Shown: one piece after another, positions 2,011-16,853 of the stretch
How the letters are laid out: every line of letters starts with the position of its first letter
Position numbering within the stretch: position 1 is the stretch's first letter
DNA from: a virus
Taxonomy: Duplodnaviria > Heunggongvirae > Uroviricota > Caudoviricetes
Virus record (IMG/VR): IMGVR_UViG_3300035501_000524
Reading direction: 5' to 3' (one strand)
DNA length: 64,000 bases
Made by a program: the position numbers and the translations under genes
The notes under the pieces: generated by a model
Told to the model about the DNA's origin: nothing
Database searches by the model: none
The model's input: the letters and a program-made list of their open reading frames with translations, nothing else

Positions 2011-2011
2011 T

Positions 2012-5326: not shown

Positions 5327-5710
5327 TTACTCTTCTTCCTCAGAAGAGTTGTAAGCGAAATACGCTTTCCGCTTTTCCTCGATTCTCACAACCAGATTTT
5401 CCTCTTTCAGATTTCTCACAAGAGCGGTTACTTTCTGGTTAGCAAGACCCTCGAGTTCCGGAACTTCTTTCATCAGTTCCGAAATTGTCTTTTTCTCACC
5501 TGTCGCTTTCAGATAAGCGAGAATGTTTTCTTTCAGACCCTCATTTGCGGTCTGAGTTGCTGTTGGCTTTCTCTCAGCCGAGTTTTTCTTGATTGTCTGT
5601 TCAAGAATTTTTTCCAATTTCTCGATAACCTCTGTATTAGGAGTTGCCTGAGCGTTCATAACCTCGATTGCGATTTCCAGTGCTTTTTTGTTTGTCATTT
5701 TGTTTGTCAT
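5327..5710 (-). CDS. Early protein family A, paralog 3, 127 aa
   Basis: Promoter TTGACA-17-TATAAT at about 5762-5795 with a long A-tract UP element. Confidence 0.6.
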   Translation of the reverse strand: MTNKMTNKKALEIAIEVMNAQATPNTEVIEKLEKILEQTIKKNSAERKPTATQTANEGLKENILAYLKATGEKKTISELMKEVPELEGLANQKVTALVRNLKEENLVVRIEEKRKAYFAYNSSEEEE

Positions 5711-5933
5711 AATACCTACCTCTTTCTTTCTTTTAATTTTTATTTTGTTTTCTTTATGTATTTATTATATCATAGGGTTTTATGTTTGTCAAGACTTTTT
5801 TTTTTATTTTTTTTTTCTTTTTTTTTATTTCACTCTTGACTTTCCTTCCCTTGCTACTCTTTAATGATACCACAGGTTGACTTGTTTGTCAAGCTTTTTT
5901 TTTATTTTTTTTTCGCCGTCCTTGTGGGCTTGT

Positions 5934-6632
5934 TTAAGCCCACAACTTCCGAACCATTTTCTTGTGCTGTTTAAAACAGTATGCAAGAATTTCTTTTTCA
6001 ATTAAAACATCTTCTAAACCAGTGTGGTTTTCAGAAAATTCATTGTTTTTTGAAATAAATCTGTAAAGGATTTCAGCGGTAAACCGAAGTCTGCCATTTT
6101 TGGTCAAATAACCATTTTCTTCACAAAATTTCTGATAAGTTGGCATTTTTCCAATAACCTGTCTTGACATTTTCAAAGTGTCGCAAATTTCAGTTCCATA
6201 AGGAAAGAAAAACCGATATTTTGATTTTGTCAGCCATCTTTGCGTATTATTTAAAGTTCCATAGTCAAAACGCATGTTGTGCGCATAGACTTCTTTTACC
6301 TCATAGAGTTTCATGTCATCTGCAAGCTGTTTTCTGATTTCATAGAAACTTGCAACAACTCTTTTGCCCTCTGCAATTTCCTTTTTATACATCGGAATTT
6401 TTTTTGCATAATAGCTTGACTTCATCAGCTCTTTTTCTTTATTGAAAATTTCATCAACAACAAAACTTCTTGCTACATACACAACACCCCTTTTATCAAC
6501 TACCGCCCAACCTATATCATAGGAAAACATGTTGCTAGGAAGAACATCTTCCAGAGTATTGTCAAGCGGACAACTCTCGCAATCTAAAACTACCTTGTAA
6601 CTAATTCTTCTGTCAATTTTTTTCTGCTCCAT
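5934..6632 (-). CDS. DEDDh-type 3'-5' exonuclease-like protein (DnaQ/RNase T/oligoribonuclease fold), 232 aa
   Basis: Candidate exonuclease motifs: I VLDCESCPLD (D.E), II YAHNMRFDYGTL (H/N..FD), III HTGLEDVLIEKE (H....D). Recognised from the motifs, not from an alignment. Confidence 0.45.
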   Translation of the reverse strand: MEQKKIDRRISYKVVLDCESCPLDNTLEDVLPSNMFSYDIGWAVVDKRGVVYVARSFVVDEIFNKEKELMKSSYYAKKIPMYKKEIAEGKRVVASFYEIRKQLADDMKLYEVKEVYAHNMRFDYGTLNNTQRWLTKSKYRFFFPYGTEICDTLKMSRQVIGKMPTYQKFCEENGYLTKNGRLRFTAEILYRFISKNNEFSENHTGLEDVLIEKEILAYCFKQHKKMVRKLWA

Positions 6633-6962
6633 TTCTTTTTACCTCTCTGTTCTTTATGTATTTATTATATCATGGAGTAGGAAGTTTGTCAAGCATTTTT
6701 TTTATTTATTTTTATTTTTTTTTTGTTTGCTCTTGACTTCTGTTCCCCTCAACTGATAAACCTATTATAAGCCTTTTCATCATAGAATACAATAGGCAAT
6801 CTGCACAAAGATGATAGAAAATTTTTGTTAATTCTGCCAGGAGTAAAAGTTGCACAAAGTTTTGCCATGAAGTTTGTGCAGGTTGCCCATTGACACGCCC
6901 CAGGCTAGCAAAGTGCCCAATTTCGGGAGAATTTAAGCGAGAAAATTTGTGCAACTTTTCGC

Positions 6963-6991
6963 TTGACAAAAGCTGAGCCGTGTGGTATAAT
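6963..6991 (+). promoter_or_regulatory. Repeated-element copy D: plus promoter TTGACA (6963-6968), 17 bp, TATAAT (6986-6991)
   Basis: Consensus hexamers. The transcript would begin at the GC hairpin 7001-7024 and end at the terminator 7081-7125. Confidence 0.55.
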
Positions 6992-7000
6992 GGAAATTTC

Positions 7001-7024
7001 GCCGGCCCAGGTGCGTGGCCGGCG
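7001..7024. other. GC-rich palindromic hairpin GCCGGCC-caggtgcgt-GGCCGGC lying between convergent promoters
   Basis: Stem read directly. Analogous GC hairpins occur in copies A, B, C and E with different stem sequences. Confidence 0.5.
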
Positions 7025-7028
7025 CGCC

Positions 7029-7057
7029 ATTTTACATCATCTCCTGGAATTTGTCAA
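7029..7057 (-). promoter_or_regulatory. Repeated-element copy D: minus promoter TTGACA (rc of 7052-7057), 17 bp, TAAAAT (rc of 7029-7034), converging on hairpin 7001-7024
   Basis: Hexamers read as the reverse complement. There is no gene downstream on the minus strand before the promoter of 5934..6632. Confidence 0.5.
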
Positions 7058-7080
7058 TAGGCAATTTAGACAAAAATTTA

Positions 7081-7125
7081 GAGTCAAGTTTATGCAACTT
7101 GACTCTTGACTTTTTACTTTTATTT
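7081..7125. terminator. Hairpin GAGTCAAGTT-tatgc-AACTTGACTC plus a T-rich run, the plus-strand terminator for the copy-D transcript; it also follows the stop of minus gene 7132..7341
   Basis: 10-bp perfect stem followed by TTGACTTTTTACTTTTATTTG on the plus strand, and by AAATTTTT on the minus strand. Confidence 0.5.
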
Positions 7126-7131
7126 GTCCCT

Positions 7132-7341
7132 TTAATCCTCGTAGAAATTCACTGGATAAATCTGCTCATCGTAGTAATAGCCTTCTTCTTCCATCTGTTG
7201 GCGCGCTTCTTCTTTTTCTTTTTCCTCGCTCTCTTTAAACCGATAGTTTAAATAATAGGTTTCAAAGGCTTGCATTGCTAACTCTTTTGTTGCGTACGCT
7301 CCAATGTCTCCATCACTATCCCAAACGTAAATTCTTTTCAT
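7132..7341 (-). CDS. Hypothetical small acidic protein, 69 aa
   Basis: ORF with an upstream promoter-like TTGACA at 7382-7387 (rc). Confidence 0.45.
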   Translation of the reverse strand: MKRIYVWDSDGDIGAYATKELAMQAFETYYLNYRFKESEEKEKEEARQQMEEEGYYYDEQIYPVNFYED

Positions 7342-7407
7342 TGTATCAACCTCTTTTCTTTTTTCTTTATTATACCACTGTTGACGCCCCCTGTCAAGGG
7401 GAAATTC

Positions 7408-7848
7408 TCAGAAGCTTCTGAGAATTTCCATGATGTTCTGAACATCGAAAGCATTTGCGCCCCATTCTGTTCTGTTTCTTTCTTCATCATCAAACAGGAA
7501 ACCTGTTCTGTCAGATACTACCGAACTTTTTGGTGTTCCATAAGTGACAATTTTGATTTCATCCCATTCAATACTCGGAAGATGTTTAGCAAGCCATTTC
7601 AGCTTTGTTGCGGTAACTTCTGCATTGAACTCTGGTGAACCACTCTTGGAAAGCCATGATACAATTCCGATTCTGTAACCGCTGTTCTGCAATCTGTGAA
7701 GCTGTCTTGCGAAACTTGAAAAGTTTAAAAGCGGTTTTGCAATTTCATAAGGTCTTGTGTTCGAGTTCATTAAATCTTCCAGCCATCCCTCTACTCCATA
7801 GAAGTTTGCGATTGTTCCATCCATGTCGAAATAAATTGTTCTTGTCAT
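7408..7848 (-). CDS. HAD-superfamily 5'(3')-deoxyribonucleotidase-like phosphatase, 146 aa
   Basis: N-terminal IYFDMDGTIANF (the DxDGT phosphoryl-acceptor motif of HAD and NT5C-type dNMP nucleotidases) and a later FDDEERN acidic motif. Confidence 0.5.
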   Translation of the reverse strand: MTRTIYFDMDGTIANFYGVEGWLEDLMNSNTRPYEIAKPLLNFSSFARQLHRLQNSGYRIGIVSWLSKSGSPEFNAEVTATKLKWLAKHLPSIEWDEIKIVTYGTPKSSVVSDRTGFLFDDEERNRTEWGANAFDVQNIMEILRSF

Positions 7849-7928
7849 TTTATCTACCTCTTTCTTTCTTTCTTTTGATAATATTATTATAACCTATTTT
7901 TTGGTAATTGTCAAGTATTTTCTTTTAA

Positions 7929-8048
7929 CTATTTTAAAGTTATTTTATAGCCATTAGCATCCTTTTCTACCACATACAAGAACTGATTTTCTTTTAAATA
8001 CTTTTCTGCCTTTTCAAAAGCTTCCTTAGTTGTGTACAAGATTGACAT
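7929..8048 (-). CDS. Small hypothetical protein, 39 aa (MSILYTTKEAFEKAEKYLKENQ...); not in the ORF track
   Basis: Promoter TTGACA-17-TAGAAT at about 8076-8106, RBS AAAGAGAGG, ATG at 8046-8048. Confidence 0.3.
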   Translation of the reverse strand: MSILYTTKEAFEKAEKYLKENQFLYVVEKDANGYKITLK

Positions 8049-8103
8049 TTCATTTACCTCTCTTTTAAGTTATACCTTATTCTATCACAATCTTTTTAGT
8101 TTG

Positions 8104-8718
8104 TCAAGAGGCTTTTTTAAAAGCCCCTTGAAAATAACTCTGATAAATTTTATCAGCTTCGATTAAATCAAAGTTCGTATTGATAAATCTGTCATTCTTT
8201 TTAAAAGAATTTGGATATCTTCTAATGTAAATTGAACGAAAATAGCTTTCTAACCCCTCTGCCGGAAAATCCATACAGTCATACACTCTGTGAATCACTG
8301 CCCTAACCGCGCCCATCTTTTTGTAAGTATCACTGTTTAATTCCTCTGTTAATCTTTTTCTAATTTCTCTAGTCGTAGTTCCAACTTTTGAACACAATAC
8401 GTTGTCATTATCATCGAAAAAGGTAAATAGATAACATTTTTGTTTTGCTTCATCCAGAAGTGATGGACAGTCAGAAGAAACTAGAATCTTTTCAGTATTT
8501 TTTGTTTTTCTTTTGGTTTCAATCTGACTAATTTCTTTTACCGCATTCTCGAAGGGGTCAAGAATATATTTTTTTGCTAACTCTTTGCAGTGTTCAAAAA
8601 TTGTCTTGCAAACTTCAAACCATTTCTTCTTCCAGTTCTTTGAAGTGTTTTCAAGTCTTTCTTTTGCGCCTTCAAAATCATCATTTTTTACATACCAATC
8701 CATTGATTTATTTGCCAT
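8104..8718 (-). CDS. Hypothetical early protein, about 204 aa (start at MANKSMDWYV)
   Basis: The conserved leader is translated as KERKKEM at the front of the track ORF. Promoter at about 8740-8775. Confidence 0.5.
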   Translation of the reverse strand: MANKSMDWYVKNDDFEGAKERLENTSKNWKKKWFEVCKTIFEHCKELAKKYILDPFENAVKEISQIETKRKTKNTEKILVSSDCPSLLDEAKQKCYLFTFFDDNDNVLCSKVGTTTREIRKRLTEELNSDTYKKMGAVRAVIHRVYDCMDFPAEGLESYFRSIYIRRYPNSFKKNDRFINTNFDLIEADKIYQSYFQGAFKKAS

Positions 8719-8786
8719 TTCTTTTTTCCTCTCTTTCATTTGATAATGTTATTATAGCACCGAACGTGCGGTTTGTCAACACTTTT

Positions 8787-8990
8787 TTATTTATTTACGA
8801 TTTTGTCAAGTAAAATTCCCAGATAGTATTCTGTAAAGGTACATGGACGCATTACAAAATCTTCTTTATTCCATTTATCATACTTAAGCGCCATTTTATT
8901 AAGCATCTGCTGTTTATTCCGAATTGGATATTTTGATTTAATAAAATAATTATTTGAATCCCCAGTAATTTTGACTAATCCGTAATACAT
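8787..8990 (-). CDS. Hypothetical small protein, about 67 aa (start at MYYGLVKITG)
   Basis: RBS GAAAGAGAGG before the ATG at 8988-8990. TTGACAGG at 9045-9052 (rc) serves as the -35. Confidence 0.4.
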   Translation of the reverse strand: MYYGLVKITGDSNNYFIKSKYPIRNKQQMLNKMALKYDKWNKEDFVMRPCTFTEYYLGILLDKIVNK

Positions 8991-9010
8991 TCTGTTTACC
9001 TCTCTTTCTA

Positions 9011-9199
9011 TCAATTATTATACTCTAACTCTTTCAACCTGTCAAGAGTTTTTTCAATATTTTTCTGATATTTATGTGTTCGATTCTCTCGACACCATTC
9101 ACATGAGCCATGATTCCGACATTGACAATCAATTGCCTTTGCTCCTCTATACATTTTTCTATGTTCTTTTCCGCTCATTATTGCCTTTTCCATGCTCAT
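9011..9199 (-). CDS. Small Cys-rich zinc-ribbon-like protein, about 62 aa (CQCRNHGSCEWC)
   Basis: C-x-C...C-x2-C spacing. Leader ATCAAAAGAGAGGAG before the ATG. Confidence 0.45.
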   Translation of the reverse strand: MSMEKAIMSGKEHRKMYRGAKAIDCQCRNHGSCEWCRENRTHKYQKNIEKTLDRLKELEYNN

Positions 9200-9266
9200 T
9201 GTTTTATCTCCTCTCTTTTGATACATTTATTATAACAGAAGGGGTTGAACTTGTCAACCCCTTTTT

Positions 9267-9713
9267 TTAAAATTTTTCTGTAAAAATTACATAACCTTCA
9301 CGATAACCGCCGAAACAATCATCAAATTCTTTGTCACTACCTTCAATTTCATAATCGTTAATAAGATAATTAACTAACTGATTTCTAAATTTACGAATCC
9401 ATTTTCTATCTTTTCTTGCAAATTCTTTCATTTTATTATTCCAGAGGAATGTTCTTGTATTAACTTCCAGACCATCAGAATCAAAAGTCTCACAAATTTT
9501 TGGAATGTTTCTGTCAAGAACCTCTTTAGCCTGCTCCTCAGACCACACAAGCTTTTCGCCCTGTTTCTCTTTATATTTTTCAACTACTCGATATCCAACA
9601 TAGAGAGGATACAGAATCACTCTCATAACCTTGTAGCCATTCTCATTCCACCATTCTCTAACAATGTGTTCTCTTTTTACCTGTCTTGCATTCATCATTT
9701 CCTCAAATCTCAT
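9267..9713 (-). CDS. Hypothetical early protein, 148 aa
   Basis: ORF with promoter TTGACG-17-TATAAT at about 9745-9778. Confidence 0.5.
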   Translation of the reverse strand: MRFEEMMNARQVKREHIVREWWNENGYKVMRVILYPLYVGYRVVEKYKEKQGEKLVWSEEQAKEVLDRNIPKICETFDSDGLEVNTRTFLWNNKMKEFARKDRKWIRKFRNQLVNYLINDYEIEGSDKEFDDCFGGYREGYVIFTEKF

Positions 9714-9797
9714 TTTATTTACCTCTCTTTCTATCCTTACCTTGTAAATACATTATAGCATAGGTTTGTGAGTACGTCAAGCTTTTTTTAATTTTTT

Positions 9798-9935
9798 TTA
9801 ATTCCAATCATATTCCATGGCATCCTCATAATCTATATTATGACGCTTACACCAATTTTTAAAATTTTTTACTGAACCGCTTGCAATTACTACATCAATA
9901 TATTCTTCTGTTGTTAATTCATCAATTTTTCTCAT
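9798..9935 (-). CDS. Hypothetical small protein, about 45 aa (start at MRKIDELTTEEY)
   Basis: The leader is translated as SKEREVNKM at the front of the track ORF. Confidence 0.35.
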   Translation of the reverse strand: MRKIDELTTEEYIDVVIASGSVKNFKNWCKRHNIDYEDAMEYDWN

Positions 9936-10003
9936 TTTATTTACCTCTCTTTCTTTTGATAGTATTATTATAACGCCTTTACGTTCATTTGTCAATACTT
10001 TTT

Positions 10004-10210
10004 TTAAATTAGTTGAAAACAATTCATGATGTTAACGTAACTATTGCAAGAAAATTCTCTAACTGTTTTTGATAAAAATTTCAACATGATTTTTTTAACA
10101 ATAGTTTCTGGTAGAGTTTTTATCATTTCCCTTTCAATAGTATTGTAAATTCCATTTGGTAATTCATACATCTTCATGGTGTCAAACTCTTCTATTGTCA
10201 ATAATCTCAT
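10004..10210 (-). CDS. Hypothetical small protein, about 68 aa (MRLLTIEEFDTMKMYELPNG...)
   Basis: Promoter TTGACT-17-TATAAT at about 10232-10262, leader ATCAAATAAAGGAAGAGG. Confidence 0.45.
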   Translation of the reverse strand: MRLLTIEEFDTMKMYELPNGIYNTIEREMIKTLPETIVKKIMLKFLSKTVREFSCNSYVNIMNCFQLI

Positions 10211-10379
10211 TTTCAAGTTCCTCTTCCTTTATTTGATGATATCATTATACCACCACCCATTCCAGAAGTCAAGCAAAAATTGCACAAAAATTAAGTAAAA
10301 ATTTTGGTTATTTTTTCCTATTGTGCAAAGTGACGAAATTTCGGGATTCCGACCGGAAAATATTTGTGCAATCTGCCTA

Positions 10380-10408
10380 TTGACAAAATTGCGGGGTGGT
10401 GGTATAAT
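10380..10408 (+). promoter_or_regulatory. Repeated-element copy E: plus promoter TTGACA (10380-10385), 17 bp, TATAAT (10403-10408), driving GC hairpin 10418-10445 and then the bidirectional terminator hairpin 10464-10485
   Basis: Consensus hexamers on the plus strand within the minus-strand gene block. No ORF downstream. Confidence 0.5.
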
Positions 10409-10483
10409 TGAAAATTCCGGCCGCAAGGACAGTGCGCGGCCGGTCAAAAATTGAAACAAAAAAGAGCTAATTTCTTAGCTCTT

Positions 10484-10657
10484 TCACTTAAATATCAACT
10501 TAATAATTATCACCGCAACCCAAACCACAAAGGCCAAACCCCAGGTGAATGTAATGAACACTCCGGCAAACTGAAGAACAAACAGCAAAAGCCAAAGCAA
10601 GCCCGCAGTAAATAAGAAGTCAAGTAGTAATGTAAATAATACTGTTAGTGCTAACAT
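10484..10657 (-). CDS. Small hydrophobic membrane protein, 57 aa (two predicted TM helices); not in the ORF track
   Basis: ATG at 10655-10657 after AGAGAGGAGAAAAAG. An unusually long leader of about 100 nt, GC-rich, follows the promoter at 10758-10790. Confidence 0.4.
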   Translation of the reverse strand: MLALTVLFTLLLDFLFTAGLLWLLLFVLQFAGVFITFTWGLAFVVWVAVIIIKLIFK

Positions 10658-10787
10658 GTTCTTTTTCTCCTCTCTTTTGGAGGCTGAGAGCCTTTCCTCG
10701 GCATCGCCTCGTGTTCAAGACAACACTGGTACTTTTGGCTCCCGACACCTCTTTCTTGATGATTTAATAATACCACACTTTTGGTTA

Positions 10788-11036
10788 TTAGTCAAGCCTT
10801 TTTCTTGTTCTATTTACAGATTCAAGTAAACATGCATCAGCGAAAAAATAAATCACATGAGACCATTTTAAAGATTCTTTTGCATAGACTAACAAATCTT
10901 CTTCTGTTGGATTCTCTGGAATGCCTGATTTTCTCCAAGTGTCAATACTTTCTTGGCACTCTGTATTCATTACGTATTTCTCCATCTGTTGGAGCAAATG
11001 AAGTCTTATTTCTATTATTTCTTCCTTGCTATACAT
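10788..11036 (-). CDS. Hypothetical small protein, about 82 aa (start at MYSKEEIIEIRLH); its stop codon lies inside the -35 box of the next promoter
   Basis: ATGTATAG start/stop overlap with the upstream small gene. Confidence 0.45.
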   Translation of the reverse strand: MYSKEEIIEIRLHLLQQMEKYVMNTECQESIDTWRKSGIPENPTEEDLLVYAKESLKWSHVIYFFADACLLESVNRTRKRLD

Positions 11037-11169
11037 TGCGCTCCTCCTCTTGCTTAACAATGAACTGTAATAGTTCTATTAAGTCCTTTACATCATCTAT
11101 TGTCCCTATCTCAATGGCGTGTTCGCTATCACAACCATAGAAAATTTTATTATCTTGTTCAATGTTCAT
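11029..11169 (-). CDS. Small hypothetical protein, 46 aa (MNIEQDNKIFYGCDSEHAIEIG...); not in the ORF track
   Basis: RBS AGAGAGGAGAAGG. Start overlaps the stop of the upstream gene (ATGA). Confidence 0.3.
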   Translation of the reverse strand: MNIEQDNKIFYGCDSEHAIEIGTIDDVKDLIELLQFIVKQEEERNV

Positions 11170-11309
11170 TTTTCCTTCTCCTCTCTAAGAATTTTATTAA
11201 TGAGGTTTTTGATTTCTTTTAAATCTTCCAAATCGCAGTAAACTTTGTCGCCCCAACCGCCTTTAATTGTGTATGGATAATTTTTATCGTCGCTTCTTTC
11301 GATTGTCAT
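11166..11309 (-). CDS. Small hypothetical protein, 47 aa (MTIERSDDKNYPYTIKGGWGDKVYCD...); not in the ORF track
   Basis: Promoter TTGACA-17-TACAAT at about 11340-11372, leader ATCAAAAAGAAAAGGAG. Confidence 0.3.
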   Translation of the reverse strand: MTIERSDDKNYPYTIKGGWGDKVYCDLEDLKEIKNLINKILREEKEK

Positions 11310-11384
11310 TGTATGCAACTCCTTTTCTTTTTGATAATGTTATTGTATCACAGGGGCTGACATTTGTCAACCCCTTTTTTGAAA

Positions 11385-11798
11385 TTATTTCTGACTGATG
11401 TTAAAATCATCATTTCTATCATACAGATAGTTTGACATGAAGTCTGTTTCATCACAACCATTTACCATCATCAGAGAATACTCTTTATCTCCAAAACCAT
11501 AGAGAAGCTGTCTAATTGTTTTACCCTTTGCATAAGCATAACCGCATTCCCATGCTGTCCCGCTGTCTGAATACATCCCGAAGTTGAGAACCCACACTTC
11601 ATCAGCTTTGTCGATTGCGTCAACATCCTGCTGGAAAACCTTCCTACCCCATGTTGCATTGTCTAAATCCCACGCATTTTCAATTTCATGTTCTATTGGA
11701 GCGTAAACTTCCAAACCTTGCGCGCGCATCTTCTGGAGAATTTGAACATACATTACTCTTTCATTATTTTTGAACCATGGACTTGCTAAATAAATCAT
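11385..11798 (-). CDS. Nucleoside 2-deoxyribosyltransferase-like protein (NDT/RCL family), about 138 aa
   Basis: N-terminal MIYLASPWF, matching the IY.AGPWF motif of the NDT family, plus a later D.D..D...G..SDSGTAWECGYAYAKGK block resembling the family's catalytic-Glu region. Confidence 0.55.
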   Translation of the reverse strand: MIYLASPWFKNNERVMYVQILQKMRAQGLEVYAPIEHEIENAWDLDNATWGRKVFQQDVDAIDKADEVWVLNFGMYSDSGTAWECGYAYAKGKTIRQLLYGFGDKEYSLMMVNGCDETDFMSNYLYDRNDDFNISQK

Positions 11799-11987
11799 TG
11801 TATCAACCTCTTTCTTTTTTGATAATATTATAATATCATATTTTTTGGTAATTGTCAATAGTTATTTTTCACGTTTTAGGTTTGGACTTAATGCCCAAAC
11901 CTAATGTAGTGATTCATCCAGTTTTCGCTGAACTGCTCTTTGAACTCTTCCGCATACTCTGTATTATAACCCCTTCTGGGGCTTTTG

Positions 11988-12170
11988 TCAAGCCCCTTTT
12001 TCAAGAACTTTTATTAAATCTTCCTTTACGCAAAAGGTTCTTTTATCTCTCTTAACTGAAAAAGGACAGTTCATACAACCAATTCCAATACAGTTAGGCT
12101 CAATTAAAAGTTCGATTGCCTTAATCTCTTCTTCGTCCAGAAGTCCCCTTTTAACAACAACAGTTTTCAT
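11988..12170 (-). CDS. Small Cys-rich protein, about 60 aa (CIGIGCMNCPF...C)
   Basis: Leader AAAAGAGAGGAATTAAAAAG before the ATG at 12168-12170. Confidence 0.4.
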   Translation of the reverse strand: MKTVVVKRGLLDEEEIKAIELLIEPNCIGIGCMNCPFSVKRDKRTFCVKEDLIKVLEKGA

Positions 12171-12241
12171 CTTTTTAATTCCTCTCTTTCTTTTGATGTA
12201 TTTATTATAGCATGAAGGTTGACGTTTATCAACCCCCAATT

Positions 12242-12394
12242 TTAATCATCCTCTGTTTCCCAATATTCATCATCTTCATCCCAGAATGCCGCGAAATCAT
12301 CACATTCTTCTATTGGATTATCAATTCCGCAAGTTCCATCTTTCTTCCAGTGGGGACAATCCCAACCATTAACAGGACAATACACTTTCTTCAT
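12242..12394 (-). CDS. Small Cys-rich protein with acidic tail, 50 aa, family C (NGWDCPHWKKDGTCG...EECDDF...DDEYWETEDD); not in the ORF track
   Basis: Promoter TTGACA-17-TATAAT at about 12420-12455. Shares the WDCP...G.C...acidic-tail pattern with 169..309. Confidence 0.4.
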   Translation of the reverse strand: MKKVYCPVNGWDCPHWKKDGTCGIDNPIEECDDFAAFWDEDDEYWETEDD

Positions 12395-12463
12395 TTTTAT
12401 CAATTCCTTTCTTCTTTTGATATTATCATTATAACATGGATTGACTTAATTGTCAACAAGAAA

Positions 12464-12937
12464 TTATAATTTCTTGTTGATTTCTGTTACATTGTATTTC
12501 ACATGATATTTCTGCAAAATATCTTTGATGATAGCACTTTCTTCTCTGGTCTTACTGAAAATGTCGATGTTGTAATAGGTTTCATCTTTGTAAACTACTT
12601 CACCACAAGTATAACTAACTGAGAATGGTTCTAACTTGTTGACTAACTCTTTATCTTTTGAAGTAACTGAGATTTTCCACAAACAATCTTTCTTGCATTT
12701 TTCCATGAGCCAAATTGACGCATACACACCAATTAAATTAGTTAAGATGGTTACCGTAACAGTGATACCTAAGTCAAGACTAGCTAACTGTTTAACCACA
12801 ACCGCGTAGAATCCGTAGGACAGTGCGTTGATTGCCGCCGCGGTCTTTTTACCTGCGCGCACGGTTAAGATTGATTTCATTGTTGACAGCATTACATTGA
12901 TTAAACTACATGTAAAAAATATTATAATTGCTTGCAT
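12464..12937 (-). CDS. Membrane protein, about 157 aa: N-terminal transmembrane segments and a C-terminal soluble domain
   Basis: Start at MQAIIIFF after GAGAGAGGAG. The hydrophobic N-terminal half is read directly from the translation. Confidence 0.5.
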   Translation of the reverse strand: MQAIIIFFTCSLINVMLSTMKSILTVRAGKKTAAAINALSYGFYAVVVKQLASLDLGITVTVTILTNLIGVYASIWLMEKCKKDCLWKISVTSKDKELVNKLEPFSVSYTCGEVVYKDETYYNIDIFSKTREESAIIKDILQKYHVKYNVTEINKKL

Positions 12938-13008
12938 TTCTTTTATTCTCCTCTCTCTTGGAACTATAATTATTATACCCCGAAAGGGGTTATTTGTCAA
13001 CCCCTATT

Positions 13009-13386
13009 TCATTTATTTCTTAACATTTTAATTTCATTTTTGATTGCATTAATAGCTTCTTCACATTCAGCGATTTTCTTTTTCTTAGTTGTTTCTTTCA
13101 TTGTTTTACTTGCATAGATTCTATTTTCTTCTGCAAACCATCTATTCAGACTACGCGTTTTGAATTCAATAGTTCTCTTCTGAGAAGCTAATTCCCTTGC
13201 CTTTTTCTCTTCTTTGTTGTCGCCTCTAACCTCTACGATTTCTACCATTGCTACAGTTGCAATTCCATTTTCATTTGTTGAGATGGTTTTAAAATAATCT
13301 CCTACGTGATATTTTTTAGCTTCTTTATTAGAAATAGTTGCTACTACGTATTCTTCATGACCATTTCTTGCGATAATCTCTTTCAT
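13009..13386 (-). CDS. Hypothetical early protein, 125 aa, Lys-rich C-terminus
   Basis: ORF with promoter TTGACA-17-TATAAT at about 13430-13465. Confidence 0.5.
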   Translation of the reverse strand: MKEIIARNGHEEYVVATISNKEAKKYHVGDYFKTISTNENGIATVAMVEIVEVRGDNKEEKKARELASQKRTIEFKTRSLNRWFAEENRIYASKTMKETTKKKKIAECEEAINAIKNEIKMLRNK

Positions 13387-13482
13387 TTTATTCCACCAAA
13401 TCCCTTTAGGATTTCCCTTTCTTTATTATGTAATTATTATACCATGGGGCTGACCTTTTGTCAACCCCTTTTGGAAAATTTT

Positions 13483-13908
13483 TTAAAATAATTTCGCAAT
13501 ACCTCTGTCTCTCAGATACTCACACAACTCCTCAGCAGAAAGCACCTCAGCAAGCTTTTTAATCTTCAAGCTTCTCTCTTCCTCATAGACTACCTTGACG
13601 CCAAGAGATTTGAACTGTTTCTCTGTACAGGTTTCAACCATTTCTGGATACTTAGGAACTGTAAAACGCAGAAGAGGTTTTTTCTTAAAGAATGTTTTAC
13701 CTATCTCAGCGTTCATGATTATTCCGCTCTCTACAATCTCCTTAGCATCTTCAAAGCTAGTAATTTCATCAATTTCAAAGCTTCGTTCTTTGGCTTCTTC
13801 TTCCTCTAGATAGAAATAATGGTTATAGATGTTAGTTGGCATCCAGTTCTTCTCTCCATTAAGTTTAATGTATGTGCTATGGCTGTAAATCTTCTTCATT
13901 ATCATCAT
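13483..13908 (-). CDS. Hypothetical early protein, about 140 aa; exact start uncertain because of the MMIMKK cluster
   Basis: Promoter TTGACA-17-TACAAT at about 13930-13965. Confidence 0.45.
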   Translation of the reverse strand: MMIMKKIYSHSTYIKLNGEKNWMPTNIYNHYFYLEEEEAKERSFEIDEITSFEDAKEIVESGIIMNAEIGKTFFKKKPLLRFTVPKYPEMVETCTEKQFKSLGVKVVYEEERSLKIKKLAEVLSAEELCEYLRDRGIAKLF

Positions 13909-14081
13909 GCCCTTTCTTATCTCTTTTGATGATACTATTGTATCACACATAGCTTACTTTGTCAACGTCTTTTTTCACAAAAATAACAAGCTGTTTTTGT
14001 GCAAGTTTCACTGTGTTAAATTTTTAACGATCTTGCCCCTGCGGTCCGAACGTAGAAAAAAGAAAAGGCGGATTTCCCGCC

Positions 14082-14300
14082 TTATTCTTCCTCTTCTTCT
14101 TCCCACCCATCATCAAGCAAGCTAAACATCAACCTGTCAAGCAGGTCTTCAAGCTGAACACAAACCACGCTGAAACCAAGTCCGCAAAGACCACCTACCA
14201 AAAGAGACCAAATAGACAAGCCTGCGTAACCCCATGCAAGACCAGCTCCCAGAAGTACACAAATAACAGCCGTAATTTCAAACCTTGTTTTTTCGTTCAT
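14082..14300 (-). CDS. Small membrane protein, 72 aa: two predicted TM helices and an EEEEE tail
   Basis: Promoter at about 14352-14386 and a purine-rich (AAAAG)n leader. Confidence 0.5.
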   Translation of the reverse strand: MNEKTRFEITAVICVLLGAGLAWGYAGLSIWSLLVGGLCGLGFSVVCVQLEDLLDRLMFSLLDDGWEEEEEE

Positions 14301-14375
14301 TTCTTTTTCCTCTTTTCTTTCTTTTCTTTTCTTTTCTTTTTTACATTATTATAATATCATATTTTTTGGTAATTG

Positions 14376-14576
14376 TCAATACCTTTTTTCACGTCTTGTT
14401 ACAAGAACTTTATTCCCGTCTATCTCCTGAATACATACCTCATTTAAAGCCCCTGTATAGTGTATAGCTAATAGGGTATCTTCAGCAGACAGGGTGTGAT
14501 TCTCTGCTAGTGTATCTCCTGTATCTGTATCTATTAGTCTTTCCCAGTCTTCACTCTTAATTAGTGTTACTCTCAT
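14376..14576 (-). CDS. Hypothetical small protein, about 66 aa (start at MRVTLIKSEDWERL)
   Basis: ORF in a compositionally less AT-rich segment. Confidence 0.35.
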   Translation of the reverse strand: MRVTLIKSEDWERLIDTDTGDTLAENHTLSAEDTLLAIHYTGALNEVCIQEIDGNKVLVTRREKRY

Positions 14577-14632
14577 AGTATCATCCTTTCTTTGGCTTGC
14601 TATCATTGTGATAGCAAGCCTTTATCGCTTGC

Positions 14633-14896
14633 TTAGTGTGCATTGATGTATGTCACTATCTCATCATCTGTTATGTCCTCTGTGCCCAGGCTGTCCATGA
14701 CCAGTGTTACCCTGTCGCCCATGCTCATAGCTACATCTTCCATCACCCAGAGATAACCATCTGTATCTTCCAGCCCTACATACTGTACACCATCATACTC
14801 ATTGACCTCATACACTACAGCCTTCACTGTGTACATGTCTGTCTGTGCTGTGCTACCTGCCATCATCATTGCCATTGCTAATACCATTGCTTTCAT
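14633..14896 (-). CDS. Small secreted protein, about 87 aa, with a predicted signal peptide (MKAMVLAMAMMMAGSTAQTD)
   Basis: Hydrophobic N-terminus followed by A.T. Promoter TAGACA-17-TATAAT at about 14912-14945, overlapped by a perfect 15-bp inverted repeat. Confidence 0.45.
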   Translation of the reverse strand: MKAMVLAMAMMMAGSTAQTDMYTVKAVVYEVNEYDGVQYVGLEDTDGYLWVMEDVAMSMGDRVTLVMDSLGTEDITDDEIVTYINAH

Positions 14897-14968
14897 CATC
14901 GTCTATCGACTCCTTTCTTTCCTTACCTTGTAAACACATTATAGCACACACACTGCTCCCTGTCTACT

Positions 14969-15012
14969 GGCAGATTGCACAAACTTCATCATACATCTTT
15001 GTGCAATCTGCC
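14969..15012. promoter_or_regulatory. Perfect 15-bp inverted repeat GGCAGATTGCACAAA-N14-TTTGTGCAATCTGCC; operator-like, made of TTGCACAAA half-sites
   Basis: Read directly. It sits between the minus promoter of 14633..14896 and a plus-strand TTGACA-17-TATAGG promoter at 15015-15043. Confidence 0.5.
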
Positions 15013-15049
15013 TATTGACACTCACTAATTACAACATTATAGGAATGTG

Positions 15050-15223
15050 ATGATTAGCAAGCGTGCATGCCTCTTGGATCGAGAAATATTGAGCCGTCAC
15101 GTCAATCGAAAATTCGGTCCATCTCCTGCGTCAATGGCCCGGTGCGCAGCGCTCGCGCGACACGCCTCTCAGAAAACGCGACAATACGTTTTAGACATTT
15201 TTTCCGAGATAGTTTTGAAATAA
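15050..15223 (+). CDS. Candidate 57-aa basic protein on the opposite strand inside a GC-rich island (MISKRACLLDREILSRHVNRKFGPSPASMARCAALARHASQKTRQYVLDIFSEIVLK)
   Basis: Plus-strand promoter TTGACA (15015-15020), 17 bp, TATAGG (15038-15043). AGGA is 5 nt before the ATG. GC content is much higher than the surrounding phage sequence. Low confidence; the region could instead be a non-coding RNA. Confidence 0.2.
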   Translation: MISKRACLLDREILSRHVNRKFGPSPASMARCAALARHASQKTRQYVLDIFSEIVLK

Positions 15224-15367
15224 AAAATCATTAGACTGAATGATGCTTAGTGGGGGGTGTATTTCGGGAGAAAAAATTTTTTCATTTTGAATTTGATATT
15301 CCTCTGGCCATAATTCCCACCAAATCGATTTCAGAAACGAGATTACGATATTATCTCTTTCAAAATC

Positions 15368-15910
15368 CTATTTCTCTTCTTCTGGCTCTTCTTTATCTAC
15401 ATAATAAATTTTATCAATTTCAGGATTTTCAAAATTAGGTTTCCTATCCTGATATACTAAGTCCTCTATTTCTCGGCCCCAATGCGGATACAAAAAAATC
15501 TTAATTCCTTTTTCTTTTGCATATTCAATCGTTTCGTATGTTCCGCCTTCTTCAATACCATCCCAAACCGCAATCAAAATATCTGAATGGTCAACCATCC
15601 ACTTGTCTCTAAAGCCATAAGAATCTTTTCCGTCATTATATTGCGGATACAAAAAAATTACATTTCTAGCGCTTTCCATTAAATTAATCTCTTTATCATG
15701 AAAAGTTTTTCTCCAACTTGGATAAATACATGTATAAGGAATTTTATTATACTTTGCGCATTCTGCCGCAATTTGATCTACTCCTTGCGCCATTCCAGTA
15801 AAAAATTCTTCCGGTCTAATTTCTTTCAAAGTATCTTCAATCCAATTTCGAACATACCACTCATGTCCAGTTAACCTTCCAGGTCTATGCCCGGTTATCA
15901 TTGCTCTCAT
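15368..15910 (-). CDS. SLOG-superfamily (YpsA/DUF1273-like) Rossmann-fold nucleotide-binding protein, 180 aa
   Basis: Motifs MITGHRPGRL, FFTGMAQGVDQIAAE and ILIAVWDG..GGT match the YpsA/DprA/LOG-like glycine-rich nucleotide-binding pattern. Recognised from the motifs. Confidence 0.45.
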   Translation of the reverse strand: MRAMITGHRPGRLTGHEWYVRNWIEDTLKEIRPEEFFTGMAQGVDQIAAECAKYNKIPYTCIYPSWRKTFHDKEINLMESARNVIFLYPQYNDGKDSYGFRDKWMVDHSDILIAVWDGIEEGGTYETIEYAKEKGIKIFLYPHWGREIEDLVYQDRKPNFENPEIDKIYYVDKEEPEEEK

Positions 15911-16174
15911 TTACCCTTCAATAACCTCCTGTAGTTCAGTTGGAATTTCTACACCAAGTTCTTTTAAAACTTCTGCGGCTGCCAAATATTTCCCATCTAC
16001 CGATCCATAAGGCGCCAACAAAATATAATCCTTTCCTTCAATTTCTGCGGTAAAAAATTCCATCTGATTATTTTCTGAATTTATATACATGCGCGCCCGC
16101 AAACTTTTAGGAATTGTAATTCTTCCTAAATCATCAATTTTTTTTACTACATTTTCCGGTTTAACTACTACCAT
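15911..16174 (-). CDS. AbrB/MazE/SpoVT-family swapped-hairpin DNA-binding protein, 87 aa
   Basis: N-terminal KIDDLGRITIPKSLRARM matches the canonical D.LGR..IP.E.R AbrB-N motif. Confidence 0.65.
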   Translation of the reverse strand: MVVVKPENVVKKIDDLGRITIPKSLRARMYINSENNQMEFFTAEIEGKDYILLAPYGSVDGKYLAAAEVLKELGVEIPTELQEVIEG

Positions 16175-16563
16175 TATTCATTCTCCTTTTTCTCATTCAA
16201 TGTCCAACATTTTTTATTAAATAGACTACAATTTAAATTACATTGACCTCCATAGCCTTCACAAGGATGAAGCTCTTCCAAAAGAAAATCAAGACAGTGA
16301 TTGTGCGCGGTCTTGATATCCCACATCATGCTGTCCCAGCCCCATTCCTCGAAAACTCGTCGCGCAATATATTCATCTCTCATTTTAATATATTCTTCTG
16401 TTGAAACTTTGATTTTATTATCATCATCTTTGTTTTCTTTTTCTTTTTCTTTTCCAAATAAATTTCTAAAAAATGGATTTGCGATATTTTTTTCTTTAGC
16501 TATTTTTGTAAAATCGCTACTATATTTTACTCTTGCGGCCCCACTTCCACTTAATACTACCAT
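16174..16563 (-). CDS. Hypothetical protein, 129 aa, Cys/His-containing C-terminus (HNHCLD...HPCEGYGGQCNLNC)
   Basis: ORF translationally coupled to the flanking genes by ATGA-type overlaps. Confidence 0.5.
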   Translation of the reverse strand: MVVLSGSGAARVKYSSDFTKIAKEKNIANPFFRNLFGKEKEKENKDDDNKIKVSTEEYIKMRDEYIARRVFEEWGWDSMMWDIKTAHNHCLDFLLEELHPCEGYGGQCNLNCSLFNKKCWTLNEKKENE

Positions 16564-16824: not shown

Positions 16825-16853
16825 ATTATAACAAAAATTTTAGGTTTTGTCAA
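16825..16853 (-). promoter_or_regulatory. Leftward early promoter: TTGACA (rc of 16848-16853), 17 bp, TATAAT (rc of 16825-16830)
   Basis: Its -35 box shares the palindrome GTCAAAAAATTTGAC (16849-16863) with the rightward promoter. Confidence 0.6.

What the first reader, a model, noticed from the sequence alone, without database searches (positions are those of the whole stretch)
5934..15910. Cluster of nucleotide-centric early genes: candidate counter-defence or DNA-modification toolkit
Four enzymes lie among the anonymous early genes. They are a SLOG/YpsA-like Rossmann protein (15368..15910), a nucleoside 2-deoxyribosyltransferase-like protein (11385..11798), a HAD 5'(3')-deoxyribonucleotidase-like phosphatase (7408..7848) and a DEDDh 3'-5' exonuclease-like protein (5934..6632). 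SLOG and NDT-like domains recur in bacterial nucleotide-signalling immune systems and in phage proteins that counter them. HAD dNMPases and NDT enzymes are also used by phages to remodel nucleotide pools for non-canonical DNA bases. No polymerase or other replication gene appears in the window, so the four enzymes are not simply part of a replication block. The SLOG gene is co-transcribed with an AbrB-like regulator from the very first early promoter. The combination could be an immune-signal-degrading or nucleoside-remodelling anti-defence system that has not been described as a unit.
Basis: partly seen in the sequence, partly recalled or inferred. Interest (0 to 1): 0.75.

Follow-up and report, generated by a model that had tools for sequence, protein, structure and literature searches.

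The report
Four unlinked early phage nucleotide enzymes
Four nucleotide-handling enzymes really are encoded among the early genes of this large gut phage, but each has its own promoter and only two of them (a phosphatase and an exonuclease) stay together in related phages, so this is an ordinary early-gene arm and not a new four-part counter-defence system.

Summary
All four ORFs exist at the stated coordinates and their fold assignments are supported. NDT is a clear PF05014 member with intact catalytic residues. SLOG belongs to the YpsA/SPbeta-YoqJ family. The HAD has all four HAD motifs and is a distant YorS/NT5C-like protein. The exonuclease has all five DEDDh residues.

The interpretation as one unit does not hold. 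The window is the early arm plus the structural arm of an SPbeta-like gut siphovirus of the ~135-kb class. The early arm holds about 40 near-consensus sigma-70 promoters, and exo, HAD and NDT each have their own.

Among 76 non-identical related loci, exo accompanies HAD in 93%, always on the same strand and usually about 2 kb downstream. NDT is present in 17%, on either side, and SLOG in 4%. All four occur together only in near-identical copies of this phage.

The real conserved feature is the HAD-then-exo pair. Enterococcus phages H1/EF1 have a non-orthologous HAD at the same position. My best reading is early DNA-to-dNMP-to-deoxynucleoside catabolism, analogous to T5 A1 plus Dmp. T5 Dmp also blocks the Kongming defence. 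NDT and SLOG are sporadic accessory genes.

The parts
5934..6632 (-). DEDDh-type 3'-5' exonuclease (232 aa), phage family phrog_20187. It is the conserved partner of the HAD gene.
   Evidence: phrog_20187 at 2.5e-45. PADLOC DEDDh at 6.9e-7. D17/E19/D123/H203/D208 invariant in 110-111 of 111 homologues. AF2 pLDDT 83, Foldseek hits to TREX1/2, Orn, RNase T and epsilon at probability 1.0, TM 0.45-0.5. Present in 93% of HAD-anchored relatives.
6664..6692 (-). Own sigma-70-type promoter of the exonuclease gene (TTGACA-N17-TATAAT, 12/12, extended -10 TG).
7408..7848 (-). HAD-superfamily phosphatase (146 aa), distantly NT5C/YorS-like. Probably a 5'(3')-deoxyribonucleotidase.
   Evidence: Pfam NT5C at 24.7 bits against a 24.8 cut-off. 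phrog_2643 at 1.2e-12. All four HAD motifs invariant in 96 of 96. hhalign against SPbeta YorS at probability 83%, E 8.5e-6. Many family members carry a precomputed PF06941 hit.
7886..7914 (-). Own sigma-70-type promoter of the HAD gene (12/12).
11385..11798 (-). Nucleoside 2'-deoxyribosyltransferase family protein (137 aa). A sporadic accessory gene.
   Evidence: PF05014 at 3.9e-19. 6evs at 1e-10. Y3, D58, D78 and the nucleophile E84 are conserved. Present in only 17% of relatives, on either side of HAD.
11830..11858 (-). Own sigma-70-type promoter of the NDT gene (11/12).
15368..15910 (-). SLOG-fold protein of the YpsA / SPbeta-YoqJ (DUF1273) family (180 aa, with a disordered acidic tail from about residue 150). 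A sporadic accessory gene.
   Evidence: Present in 4% of relatives.
15911..16174 (-). SpoVT/AbrB-type small DNA-binding protein, contiguous with SLOG.
   Evidence: Pfam MazE_antitoxin at 2.8e-4, NCBIfam AbrB at 2e-5 (both under their cut-offs), phrog_4681 at 7e-9. Not next to SLOG in the relatives that have SLOG.
16174..16563 (-). Unknown 129-aa protein, an upstream member of the SLOG operon (overlapping stop/start with the AbrB-like gene).
   Evidence: No family hit.
16825..16853 (-). First early promoter next to the divergent junction (12/12, TG). It drives the operon that ends with SLOG.

Best explanation
The region is part of the early-gene arm of a large SPbeta-like siphovirus of gut Bacillota, probably Clostridia. 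The arm is an array of about 45 small genes. Nearly every gene, or every short operon, is driven by its own strong host-type (sigma-A) promoter.

The four enzymes are independent early genes and do not form one system.

Two of them form a conserved pair: the HAD phosphatase and, downstream of it, the DEDDh exonuclease. The inferred mechanism is as follows. The exonuclease digests DNA from 3' ends to 5'-dNMPs; the most likely substrate is host DNA or its fragments. The NT5C-like phosphatase then removes the phosphate, giving deoxynucleosides. Early in infection this drains or re-balances the dNMP pool. It is the job that the A1 nuclease and the Dmp phosphatase do in phage T5, carried out here by unrelated protein families.

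Where NDT is present it can act on the deoxynucleosides produced, swapping or releasing bases. It is an optional add-on.

The SLOG protein is the counterpart of SPbeta YoqJ. It is a small-ligand-binding Rossmannoid protein with no known ligand or role.

What is shown: the folds, the intact catalytic residues, the promoters and the linkage statistics. What is inferred: the substrates, the order of reactions and the physiological purpose.
For: Phage identity. The terminase is 50-61% identical to those of Enterococcus EF1/H1/VRE9, Geobacillus E3 and Phass-1, and is related to SPbeta YonF. Portal, tape-measure and sigma-like genes lie on the plus arm.

Promoter array. There are 48 sites with at most 1 mismatch to TTGACA-N17-TATAAT against 1.5 expected. 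Forty-two of them lie in 1-16900. Exo, HAD and NDT each have their own copy directly upstream.

Linkage.
- Exo is found in 71 of 76 HAD-anchored non-identical loci, and 0 of 88 exo copies are on the opposite strand.
- Exo is in 37 of 39 clusters after de-replication.
- Exo lies downstream of HAD in 63 of 70 loci, at a median of 2.1 kb. The next most conserved early genes of this window reach only 49%, 39%, 32% and 30%.
- HAD is present in 16 of 20 exo-anchored loci.
- In an independent set of MAG contigs, HAD is present in 6 of 7 loci that have at least 2.4 kb upstream of exo, and is only 56 bp away in two of them.

Non-orthologous replacement. Enterococcus phages H1 and EF1 have a different HAD subfamily (PF12710 at 3e-9; hhalign shares motif I only), then one gene, then the exo orthologue, at the end of their early arm. 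L117 likewise has another HAD-like ORF 2.2 kb upstream of exo.

Active sites are intact across relatives of 25-97% identity.

The HAD family is related to SPbeta YorS, a clear NT5C member at 6.8e-42.

T5 precedent. The early Dmp dNMP phosphatase lies in the same pre-early block as the A1 nuclease. It disposes of host-DNA-derived dNMPs, enhances virulence and blocks the Kongming defence by removing dAMP.

NDT and SLOG behave as background accessory genes. NDT is in 17% of loci and SLOG in 4%, with variable position and neighbours. SLOG equals YoqJ.
Against: There is no biochemical evidence.

The HAD substrate is not established. Pfam NT5C is 0.1 bit below its cut-off, hhalign to YorS gives only 83%, and no PDB relative is detectable by sequence.

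The exonuclease has no clear subfamily (TM about 0.45-0.5). Its structural neighbours include both DNA enzymes (TREX1/2, epsilon) and RNA enzymes (Orn, RNase T, ERI3), so an RNA or oligonucleotide substrate is not excluded.

All the relatives belong to one broad phage clade. Conserved order could therefore reflect two core genes kept in place by descent, without a joint function. HAD and exo are usually separated by variable genes and have separate promoters here.

The loci cover only 10 kb on each side, so a distant SLOG or NDT could be missed.

The rest of this phage's genome was not seen: dNMP kinase, RNR, polymerase and any base-modification genes.

The T5 comparison is an analogy between non-homologous proteins.
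Confidence: 0.55

Rival explanations
1. Counter-defence by precursor depletion. The early HAD dNMPase, fed by the exonuclease, exists mainly to remove dNMPs such as dAMP, so that a host system which converts them into an alarm nucleotide (Kongming-type dITP signalling) cannot fire. This overlaps with the best explanation; the difference is what selection acts on.
For: T5 Dmp, an early dNMP phosphatase, is necessary and sufficient to block Kongming through its phosphatase activity (D22A abolishes it), and Dmp homologues from other phages do the same. The window's HAD is early, has an intact active site and is highly conserved.
Against: The window's HAD is not homologous to T5 Dmp beyond HAD motif I. 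No dNMP kinase, the Kongming trigger that co-occurs with Dmp, was seen in the window. It is unknown whether the Clostridia-type hosts carry Kongming-like systems. High conservation across a large clade fits a core metabolic role at least as well.
Confidence: 0.2
2. DNA-transaction roles unrelated to pools. The exonuclease is a DnaQ-like proofreader or recombination/end-processing nuclease for the phage replisome. The HAD cleans blocked 3'-phosphate ends, as the HAD domain of T4 polynucleotide kinase-phosphatase does (from my own knowledge). Together they would form a 3'-end healing pair.
For: JGI names the family 'DNA polymerase III epsilon subunit-like'. Epsilon is among the structural hits. 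SPbeta-type phages use a Pol III alpha-like polymerase, YorL, with a separate RecJ-like exonuclease nearby. Both genes behave as core genes of the clade.
Against: Both genes sit among host-promoter-driven early genes, far from any replication gene in this window, and at the distal end of the early arm in phage H1. The HAD shows no match to PNK-type 3'-phosphatase families. Its only family signals are NT5C and phrog 5'-3' deoxyribonucleotidase. Similarity to epsilon is no better than to TREX or Orn.
Confidence: 0.12
3. Pool remodelling for a non-canonical DNA base. The dNMPase and NDT remove a canonical nucleotide so that a modified one is incorporated instead. Examples are the dTMP phosphatases of uracil- or hydroxymethyluracil-containing Bacillus phages (from my own knowledge) and the NDT proposed for diaminopurine phages.
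For: NDT (PF05014) co-occurs with dZ-pathway genes in aquatic phage metagenomes, and one such enzyme prefers dA. HAD dNMPases are classic parts of such schemes.
Against: No base-synthesis or base-modification gene (PurZ, DatZ, dUMP/dCMP hydroxymethylase, DpdA and the like) turned up in any window ORF scanned or in the precomputed Pfam tables of the flanking contigs. NDT is missing from 83% of relatives that keep HAD and exo. The other half of the genome was not examined.
Confidence: 0.06
4. SLOG, NDT, HAD and exo act together as one immune-signal-degrading or nucleoside-remodelling anti-defence unit.
For: All four are early, nucleotide-related and catalytically or ligand-binding competent on sequence grounds. 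SLOG folds also occur as signal sensors in Thoeris; ThsA is a distant structural hit at E 7e-3, TM 0.46.
Against: The four are separate transcription units. All four occur together only in contigs 96-99% identical to the window. No other locus has both NDT and SLOG. SLOG homologues elsewhere have changing neighbours. The closest SLOG relatives are YpsA, YoqJ, DprA and ShosA, not ThsA.
Confidence: 0.04

Closest known systems
Phage T5 pre-early pair A1 (host-DNA-degrading nuclease) + Dmp (deoxynucleoside-5'-monophosphatase)
   Same: Both are a nuclease and a DxDGT-type dNMP phosphatase encoded close together on the same strand among the very first expressed genes, driven by strong host-type promoters. 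In T5 they turn host DNA into dNMPs and then deoxynucleosides, and Dmp doubles as an anti-Kongming factor.
   Different: The proteins are not homologous. A1 is a predicted metallophosphatase, not a DEDDh enzyme. Dmp (244 aa, no Pfam hit) shares only HAD motif I with the window's 146-aa protein. The activities of the window's proteins are untested.
Bacillus phage SPbeta YorS (5'-3' deoxyribonucleotidase, NT5C family)
   Same: It is a small HAD phosphatase in the early/middle arm of a phage from the same broad group. The window's family aligns with it over nearly its full length, including motifs I, III and IV (hhalign 83%, E 8.5e-6).
   Different: YorS is a clear NT5C member (6.8e-42), whereas the window's protein is borderline at 24.7 bits against 24.8. 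YorS sits next to a thymidylate kinase inside the replication/nucleotide block, not next to a DEDDh exonuclease.
SPbeta YoqJ / B. subtilis YpsA (SLOG superfamily, DUF1273, PDB 2nx2)
   Same: Same family (hhalign 99.6% to YoqJ) and same fold (TM 0.72 to YpsA). The GxD loop and GGT motif are conserved. Like the window's gene, YoqJ lies among small early genes of an SPbeta-type arm.
   Different: YpsA's known phenotype, FtsZ-linked division inhibition, depends on residues that are not conserved in YoqJ, and YoqJ itself has no known function. The window's protein has an extra disordered acidic C-terminal tail.
Nucleoside 2'-deoxyribosyltransferases (PF05014; e.g. PDB 6evs, 8pqr, 1f8x) and the NDT genes of 86-kb Enterococcus phages (VPE25 group) and Lactobacillus phage Lb338-1
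   Same: The Pfam score is above the cut-off. The catalytic Glu nucleophile and the Tyr/Asp/Asp residues are in place. It is 26-39% identical to annotated phage NDTs.
   Different: It lacks the C-terminal tyrosine that completes the neighbouring active site in the Lactobacillus enzyme (from my own knowledge of 1f8x). Specificity (purine versus pyrimidine, transferase versus hydrolase, nucleoside versus dNMP) is unknown.
DEDDh 3'-5' exonucleases (TREX1/2, Pol III epsilon, RNase T, oligoribonuclease); Enterococcus phage H1 gp104 'exodeoxyribonuclease'
   Same: Five catalytic residues and an RNase-H-like fold. It is 41% identical to the H1/EF1 protein.
   Different: TM is only about 0.45-0.5 to any solved member, and the Pfam RNase_T score is below the cut-off. 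It is a phage-specific family (phrog_20187) with no characterised member.

Membership tests
Nucleoside 2'-deoxyribosyltransferase family (PF05014) | Profile score above Pfam's gathering cut-off | tested here: met
   69.4 bits against 28.8.
Nucleoside 2'-deoxyribosyltransferase family (PF05014) | Catalytic glutamate nucleophile plus the Tyr and two Asp residues that hold the deoxyribose | tested here: met
   E84, Y3 and D58 are invariant in 13 of 13 relatives, and D78 in 11 of 13. The protein aligns with 6evs through ...DSGTAWE....
Nucleoside 2'-deoxyribosyltransferase family (PF05014) | Transglycosylation between deoxynucleosides and free bases | not testable with these tools
   Needs an enzyme assay. 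Some phage NDT-family proteins tested elsewhere were inactive.
HAD phosphatase superfamily | Four motifs: DxDx(T/V), S/T, K, DD | tested here: met
   D8-M-D10-G-T12, S64 (T in 4), K107 and D120-D121 are invariant in 96 of 96 homologues.
NT5C 5'(3')-deoxyribonucleotidases (PF06941; SPbeta YorS) | Profile score above the cut-off, or clear homology to a bona fide member | tested here: inconclusive
   24.7 bits against 24.8. hhalign to YorS at probability 83%, E 8.5e-6. Many family members carry a precomputed PF06941 hit. phrog_2643 at 1.2e-12.
NT5C 5'(3')-deoxyribonucleotidases (PF06941; SPbeta YorS) | Preference for deoxyribonucleoside monophosphates | not testable with these tools
   Needs an enzyme assay.
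T5 Dmp family | Sequence homology beyond the generic HAD motif I | tested here: not met
   BLASTP E 0.003 over the N-terminus only. hhalign probability 4.5%, 12 columns. The claim made here is 'works like', not 'is a member'.
DEDDh (DnaQ-like) 3'-5' exonucleases | Exo I D-x-E, Exo II D, Exo III H-x4-D | tested here: met
   D17, E19, D123, H203 and D208 are invariant in 110-111 of 111 homologues.
DEDDh (DnaQ-like) 3'-5' exonucleases | RNase-H-like fold matching solved members | tested here: met
   Foldseek probability 1.0 to TREX1/2, Orn, RNase T and epsilon, but TM is only 0.38-0.49. PADLOC DEDDh at 6.9e-7. Pfam RNase_T is below its cut-off at 16.1 against 24.
SLOG superfamily, YpsA/YoqJ (DUF1273) family | Homology to a founding member | tested here: met
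   hhalign to SPbeta YoqJ at probability 99.6%, E 5e-25. Sources name homologues 'YoqJ' or 'DUF1273'. Pfam YpsA alone is below its cut-off at 24.8 against 27.7.
SLOG superfamily, YpsA/YoqJ (DUF1273) family | Rossmannoid SLOG fold with a Gly-rich GxD loop and a GGT loop | tested here: met
   The model has pLDDT 85.5. 2nx2 is the top hit at TM 0.72, followed by ShosA, DprA, MCP and LOG. G43, D45, G122, G123 and the TGHRP motif are invariant.
   All four occur together only in 96-99% identical contigs. Elsewhere HAD+exo alone is found in 58 of 76 loci, with NDT added in 11 and with SLOG added in 2, and never with both.
   They are spread over 10 kb with about 20 other genes and 22 near-consensus promoters between them. 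Each has its own promoter.
Known phage counter-defence families (Tad1/2, Acb1/2, Apyc1, NARP and others) | Sequence or profile match to a characterised anti-defence protein | not tested
   No anti-defence library was available. PADLOC (defence side) gave only a weak ShosA match for SLOG (1e-4) and a generic DEDDh match for exo.

The most novel reading that the evidence does not exclude
The conserved early HAD-then-exo pair is a widespread counter-defence module of gut Bacillota phages, previously unrecognised. Under this reading it starves nucleotide-based immune signalling, or destroys a DNA or oligonucleotide immune product, by converting DNA and dNMPs to deoxynucleosides. It would be a Firmicutes-phage analogue of T5 Dmp's anti-Kongming action built from unrelated proteins, with NDT and the YoqJ-type SLOG protein as lineage-specific extras against other nucleotide-derived signals.
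Probability: 0.15. Interest if true: 0.6.

Novelty: new member of a known kind. Interest (0 to 1): 0.3.

Why it matters
The result removes a tempting but unsupported 'new anti-defence system' call.

It also points to something smaller that can be tested. A HAD phosphatase followed by a DEDDh exonuclease is the most conserved feature of the early arm in a very abundant clade of gut phages; each family has thousands of members in metagenomes. A non-orthologous HAD fills the same slot in cultivable Enterococcus phages.

If the pair does what T5 A1 and Dmp do, host-DNA/dNMP disposal, and possibly evasion of nucleotide-signalling immunity, would be a general early strategy of large Firmicutes phages. 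Phages H1 and EF1 would give a tractable model for testing it.

The work also ties the SLOG gene to SPbeta YoqJ, whose function is still open.

Tried and rejected
1. Megablast of the region against 50,697 phage records found no match, so the phage is not in that collection at the DNA level.

2. Stop-codon recoding. I suspected it because the relative Phass-1 uses code 15. I rejected it for this window: the plus arm is 95% coding under table 11, all three stop codons are used, and read-through gives only short extensions.

3. RNAs in the ORF-free gaps. ARAGORN and Rfam found nothing.

4. Sequence searches of HAD against the PDB, both as a single sequence and as a family profile, gave only spurious hits to catalase and Pal. 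The exo single-sequence search was also empty.

5. Walking beyond the window's left edge.
- One step showed that the early arm continues for at least 10 kb with small unknown genes, including a Lar-like gene, DUF5052 and DUF6291.
- A second step with a locus-derived protein reached only distant phages.
- The longest contig carrying the identical exo (175 kb) was not returned with DNA.
- So the replication and nucleotide-metabolism content of the rest of the genome remains unseen.

The narrower alignment found only MAG contigs and no isolate prophage.

7. An AbrB/MazE-like plus SLOG toxin-antitoxin reading (by analogy with ShosTA). I rejected it because the SLOG homologues in relatives lack the AbrB neighbour.

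8. T4 DexA-like identity of the exo. The viral fold search returned no characterised phage exonuclease.

Full report
WHAT THE WINDOW IS

Genes run on the minus strand from position 1 to about 16900 and on the plus strand from 16963 onwards. GC skew switches at the same point.

The plus arm starts with a sigma-factor-like gene (phrog_5767, 1.5e-49). It continues with a large terminase, a portal, a 3386-aa tape-measure-type protein (PhageMin_Tail, 5e-30) and other giant tail-region ORFs.

The terminase is 50-61% identical to those of Enterococcus phages EF1/H1/VRE9, Geobacillus E3, the gut phage Phass-1 and a human faecal contig. It is more distantly related to SPbeta-type YonF terminases. These phages are 134-142 kb, so the 64-kb window covers about half of such a genome. 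The literature places this group next to Spbetavirus, with probable Clostridia hosts. Exo-bearing contigs binned into MAGs are mostly Clostridia/Eubacteriales.

Unlike Phass-1, this window shows no stop-codon recoding.

THE OBSERVATION

All four ORFs are there.

- NDT is a secure PF05014 member (3.9e-19; PDB 6evs 1e-10). Tyr3, Asp58, Asp78 and the nucleophile Glu84 are conserved in relatives.
- The SLOG protein is below Pfam's YpsA cut-off. Even so, its family profile matches SPbeta YoqJ at 99.6% probability, sources name its homologues 'YoqJ' or 'DUF1273', and a confident AF2 model (pLDDT 85.5) has B. subtilis YpsA as top structural hit (TM 0.72), followed by ShosA, DprA, MCP and LOG. ThsA's SLOG domain appears only distantly.
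- The HAD protein has all four HAD motifs, invariant in 96 homologues. Its phrog hit is '5'-3' deoxyribonucleotidase' (1e-12). It misses Pfam NT5C by 0.1 bit. It aligns over nearly its full length with SPbeta YorS, a clear NT5C protein, at 83% probability.
- The exonuclease has the five DEDDh residues, invariant in 110-111 of 111 homologues. Its model (pLDDT 83) hits TREX1/2, Orn, RNase T and epsilon at probability 1.0 but TM only about 0.45-0.5. It belongs to an uncharacterised phage family, phrog_20187.

IS IT A UNIT? TRANSCRIPTION

The early arm is an extraordinary promoter array. There are 48 sites within one mismatch of TTGACA-N17-TATAAT, against 1.5 expected. Forty-two of them lie in 1-16900, and 40 of those are on the minus strand.

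Exo (6664-6692), HAD (7886-7914) and NDT (11830-11858) each have their own copy immediately upstream. SLOG is the last gene of a short operon (unknown 129-aa protein, AbrB-like protein, SLOG, with abutting or overlapping start and stop codons). That operon is fed by the first promoter after the divergent junction, at 16825-16853.

About 20 other genes and 22 promoters separate SLOG from exo. The four genes are therefore four separate transcription units, all probably read by the host polymerase early in infection.

IS IT A UNIT? CO-OCCURRENCE

I fetched 120 related loci from IMG/VR, anchored on each of the four proteins.

All four genes occur together, in the same order, only in four contigs that are 96-99% identical to the window, that is, in the same phage.

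In 76 non-identical HAD-anchored loci (HAD 39-73% identical), family profiles find exo in 71, NDT in 13 and SLOG in 3. The combinations are HAD+exo alone in 58, with NDT in 11, and with SLOG in 2. NDT and SLOG never occur together. After collapsing to 39 clusters at 90% HAD identity, the counts are exo 37, NDT 4 and SLOG 2.

NDT lies upstream of HAD in this phage but 2-8 kb downstream in most others. Isolated phages give the same picture:
- SLOG relatives are in Streptomyces, Bacillus and Serratia phages.
- NDT relatives are in 86-kb Enterococcus phages and Lb338-1.
- HAD relatives are in Phass-1 and faecal contigs.
- Exo relatives are in EF1/H1/VRE9 and Phass-1.

More distant SLOG homologues sit in the early arms of other large phages with changing neighbours. 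Once, SLOG is again the first gene at the divergent junction, but without AbrB.

The four-gene combination is therefore an idiosyncrasy of one phage. NDT and SLOG behave like the many dispensable early genes around them.

WHAT IS CONSERVED: THE HAD-THEN-EXO PAIR

- Exo is present in 93% of HAD-anchored loci, whereas the next most conserved early genes of this window reach 49%, 39%, 32% and 30%.
- None of 88 exo copies is on the opposite strand.
- Exo lies downstream of HAD in 63 of 70 loci, at a median of 2.1 kb.
- HAD is found in 16 of 20 exo-anchored loci. Three of the other four have under 4.3 kb of sequence upstream of exo, and the fourth has a different HAD-like ORF 2.2 kb upstream.
- In an independent set of MAG contigs, HAD is upstream of exo in 6 of 7 loci with enough upstream sequence, and directly adjacent (56 bp) in two.
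- Most tellingly, in Enterococcus phages H1 and EF1 the end of the early arm reads HAD hydrolase, one small gene, exo orthologue. That HAD belongs to another subfamily (PF12710) and shares only motif I with the window's protein.

A non-orthologous enzyme of the same chemistry in the same slot argues for a functional link that goes beyond inherited gene order. The two genes are still separately promoted here, and they are usually separated by variable genes.

MECHANISM (INFERRED)

A 3'-5' DEDDh exonuclease yields 5'-mononucleotides. An NT5C-like HAD phosphatase converts dNMPs to deoxynucleosides. Expressed from strong host-type promoters at the start of infection, the pair would turn DNA, most plausibly host DNA or its fragments, into deoxynucleosides.

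This is what phage T5 does with its pre-early A1 nuclease and Dmp phosphatase, which are encoded 0.85 kb apart on the same strand. Dmp dephosphorylates host-derived dNMPs, raises virulence, and blocks the Kongming defence by removing dAMP, the precursor of the dITP alarm signal.

The window's proteins are not homologous to A1 or Dmp. The claim is therefore 'works like', not 'belongs to'.

Where NDT is present, it could exchange or release the bases of the deoxynucleosides produced. A phage NDT has been proposed to drain dA in diaminopurine phages.

The SLOG protein's role is open. YpsA overproduction blocks cell division, but the residues required for that are not conserved in YoqJ.

RIVALS

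- A primarily counter-defensive purpose for the pair, modelled on T5 Dmp, is compatible with all the data and cannot be separated from the metabolic reading in silico.
- A replication-proofreading or 3'-end-healing role is possible, because the exo's subfamily and the HAD's substrate are unresolved.
- A role in non-canonical DNA synthesis has no support. No modification gene was seen in the window or the flanks, and NDT is usually absent. Half of the genome was not examined, however.
- The four-gene unit is contradicted by transcription and co-occurrence.

VERDICT

The enzymes, their early timing and a possible pool or counter-defence role for one of them hold up. The unit does not.

Each protein is a new member of a known family, in an ordinary SPbeta-type early arm. 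The conserved HAD-then-exo pair, with its T5 analogy and a cultivable Enterococcus-phage model, is the one lead worth an experiment.

Noticed in passing
window 1-16900, minus strand: An array of about 40 near-consensus sigma-70 promoters (TTGACA-N17-TATAAT, mostly with an extended -10 TG), roughly one per early gene. The window holds 48 such sites against 1.5 expected, and only 6 lie outside the early arm.
   Followed up: partly
window 4564, 6874, 6947, 7052, 7090, 10364, 14961, 14999 (ORF-free gaps 4541-4671, 6712-7130, 10229-10480, 14900-15368): A second promoter class carries an upstream TTGTGCAA-N5-C-N2-TTGACA motif (8 copies against 0.23 expected). At 6963-6991 and 10380-10408 it gives perfect promoters on the PLUS strand, antisense to the early genes, each followed by a GC-rich hairpin; the copy at 14999-15020 also lies on the plus strand. 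They may be operator-bearing or convergent promoters, or small RNAs. Rfam and ARAGORN find nothing.
   Followed up: partly
window 912-1289, 2984-3361, 5327-5710 (minus strand): Three paralogous genes of about 125 aa (70-77% DNA identity over 130-270 nt), with weak winged-helix hits (TrmB, Penicillinase_R, MarR-like) for the second and third copies; the first copy (912-1289) had no family hit. Homologues of one copy are the third most conserved early gene in relatives (49%).
   Followed up: partly
window 16963-17973 (plus strand): The first gene of the late arm is a sigma-factor-like protein (phrog_5767, 1.5e-49). Its C-terminal ~50 residues also match HNH, endonuclease VII and Lar-type zinc-ribbon profiles. 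Few sigma-70 promoters occur in the late arm, which fits a phage-specific transcription switch.
   Followed up: no
window 43736-49369 and 55859-61303 (plus strand): Two giant ORFs (1877 and 1814 aa) in the tail region have no Pfam hit at all. They sit next to a 3386-aa tape-measure-type protein (33466-43626).
   Followed up: no
L002 (Enterococcus phage EF1, MF001358.1 63068-63694) and L140 18617-19243 (phage H1): The EF1 gene annotated 'diguanylate cyclase/phosphodiesterase (GGDEF & EAL...)' is the counterpart of H1_102, which is a HAD-superfamily hydrolase (PF12710, 3e-9). The EF1 annotation looks wrong.
   Followed up: partly
L001 (Phass-1, OQ749652.1 130698-131642): The exo homologue of Phass-1 is on the minus strand (tblastn 130968-131618), but the record annotates a plus-strand CDS over that stretch. 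This is probably a mis-call in a genome annotated under code 15. Phass-1 also has exo upstream of HAD, the reverse of the usual order.
   Followed up: no
L033, L043, L035-L040, L002 and others: Several relatives carry two HAD paralogues and/or two exo paralogues (about 30% and about 48% identical to the window's exo) in the same early arm.
   Followed up: partly
window 12464-12937 (minus strand): A membrane protein with weak similarity to the UPF0316/PRK04164 family (NCBIfam 3e-5, far below its cut-off). It is conserved in 30% of relatives, more than NDT or SLOG.
   Followed up: no
L128/L129 (beyond the window's left edge): The early arm continues for at least 10 kb past position 1. It holds small unknown genes, a short opposite-strand block (DUF6291), a Lar-type restriction-alleviation gene and a DUF5052 protein. 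No replication gene is visible there.
   Followed up: partly
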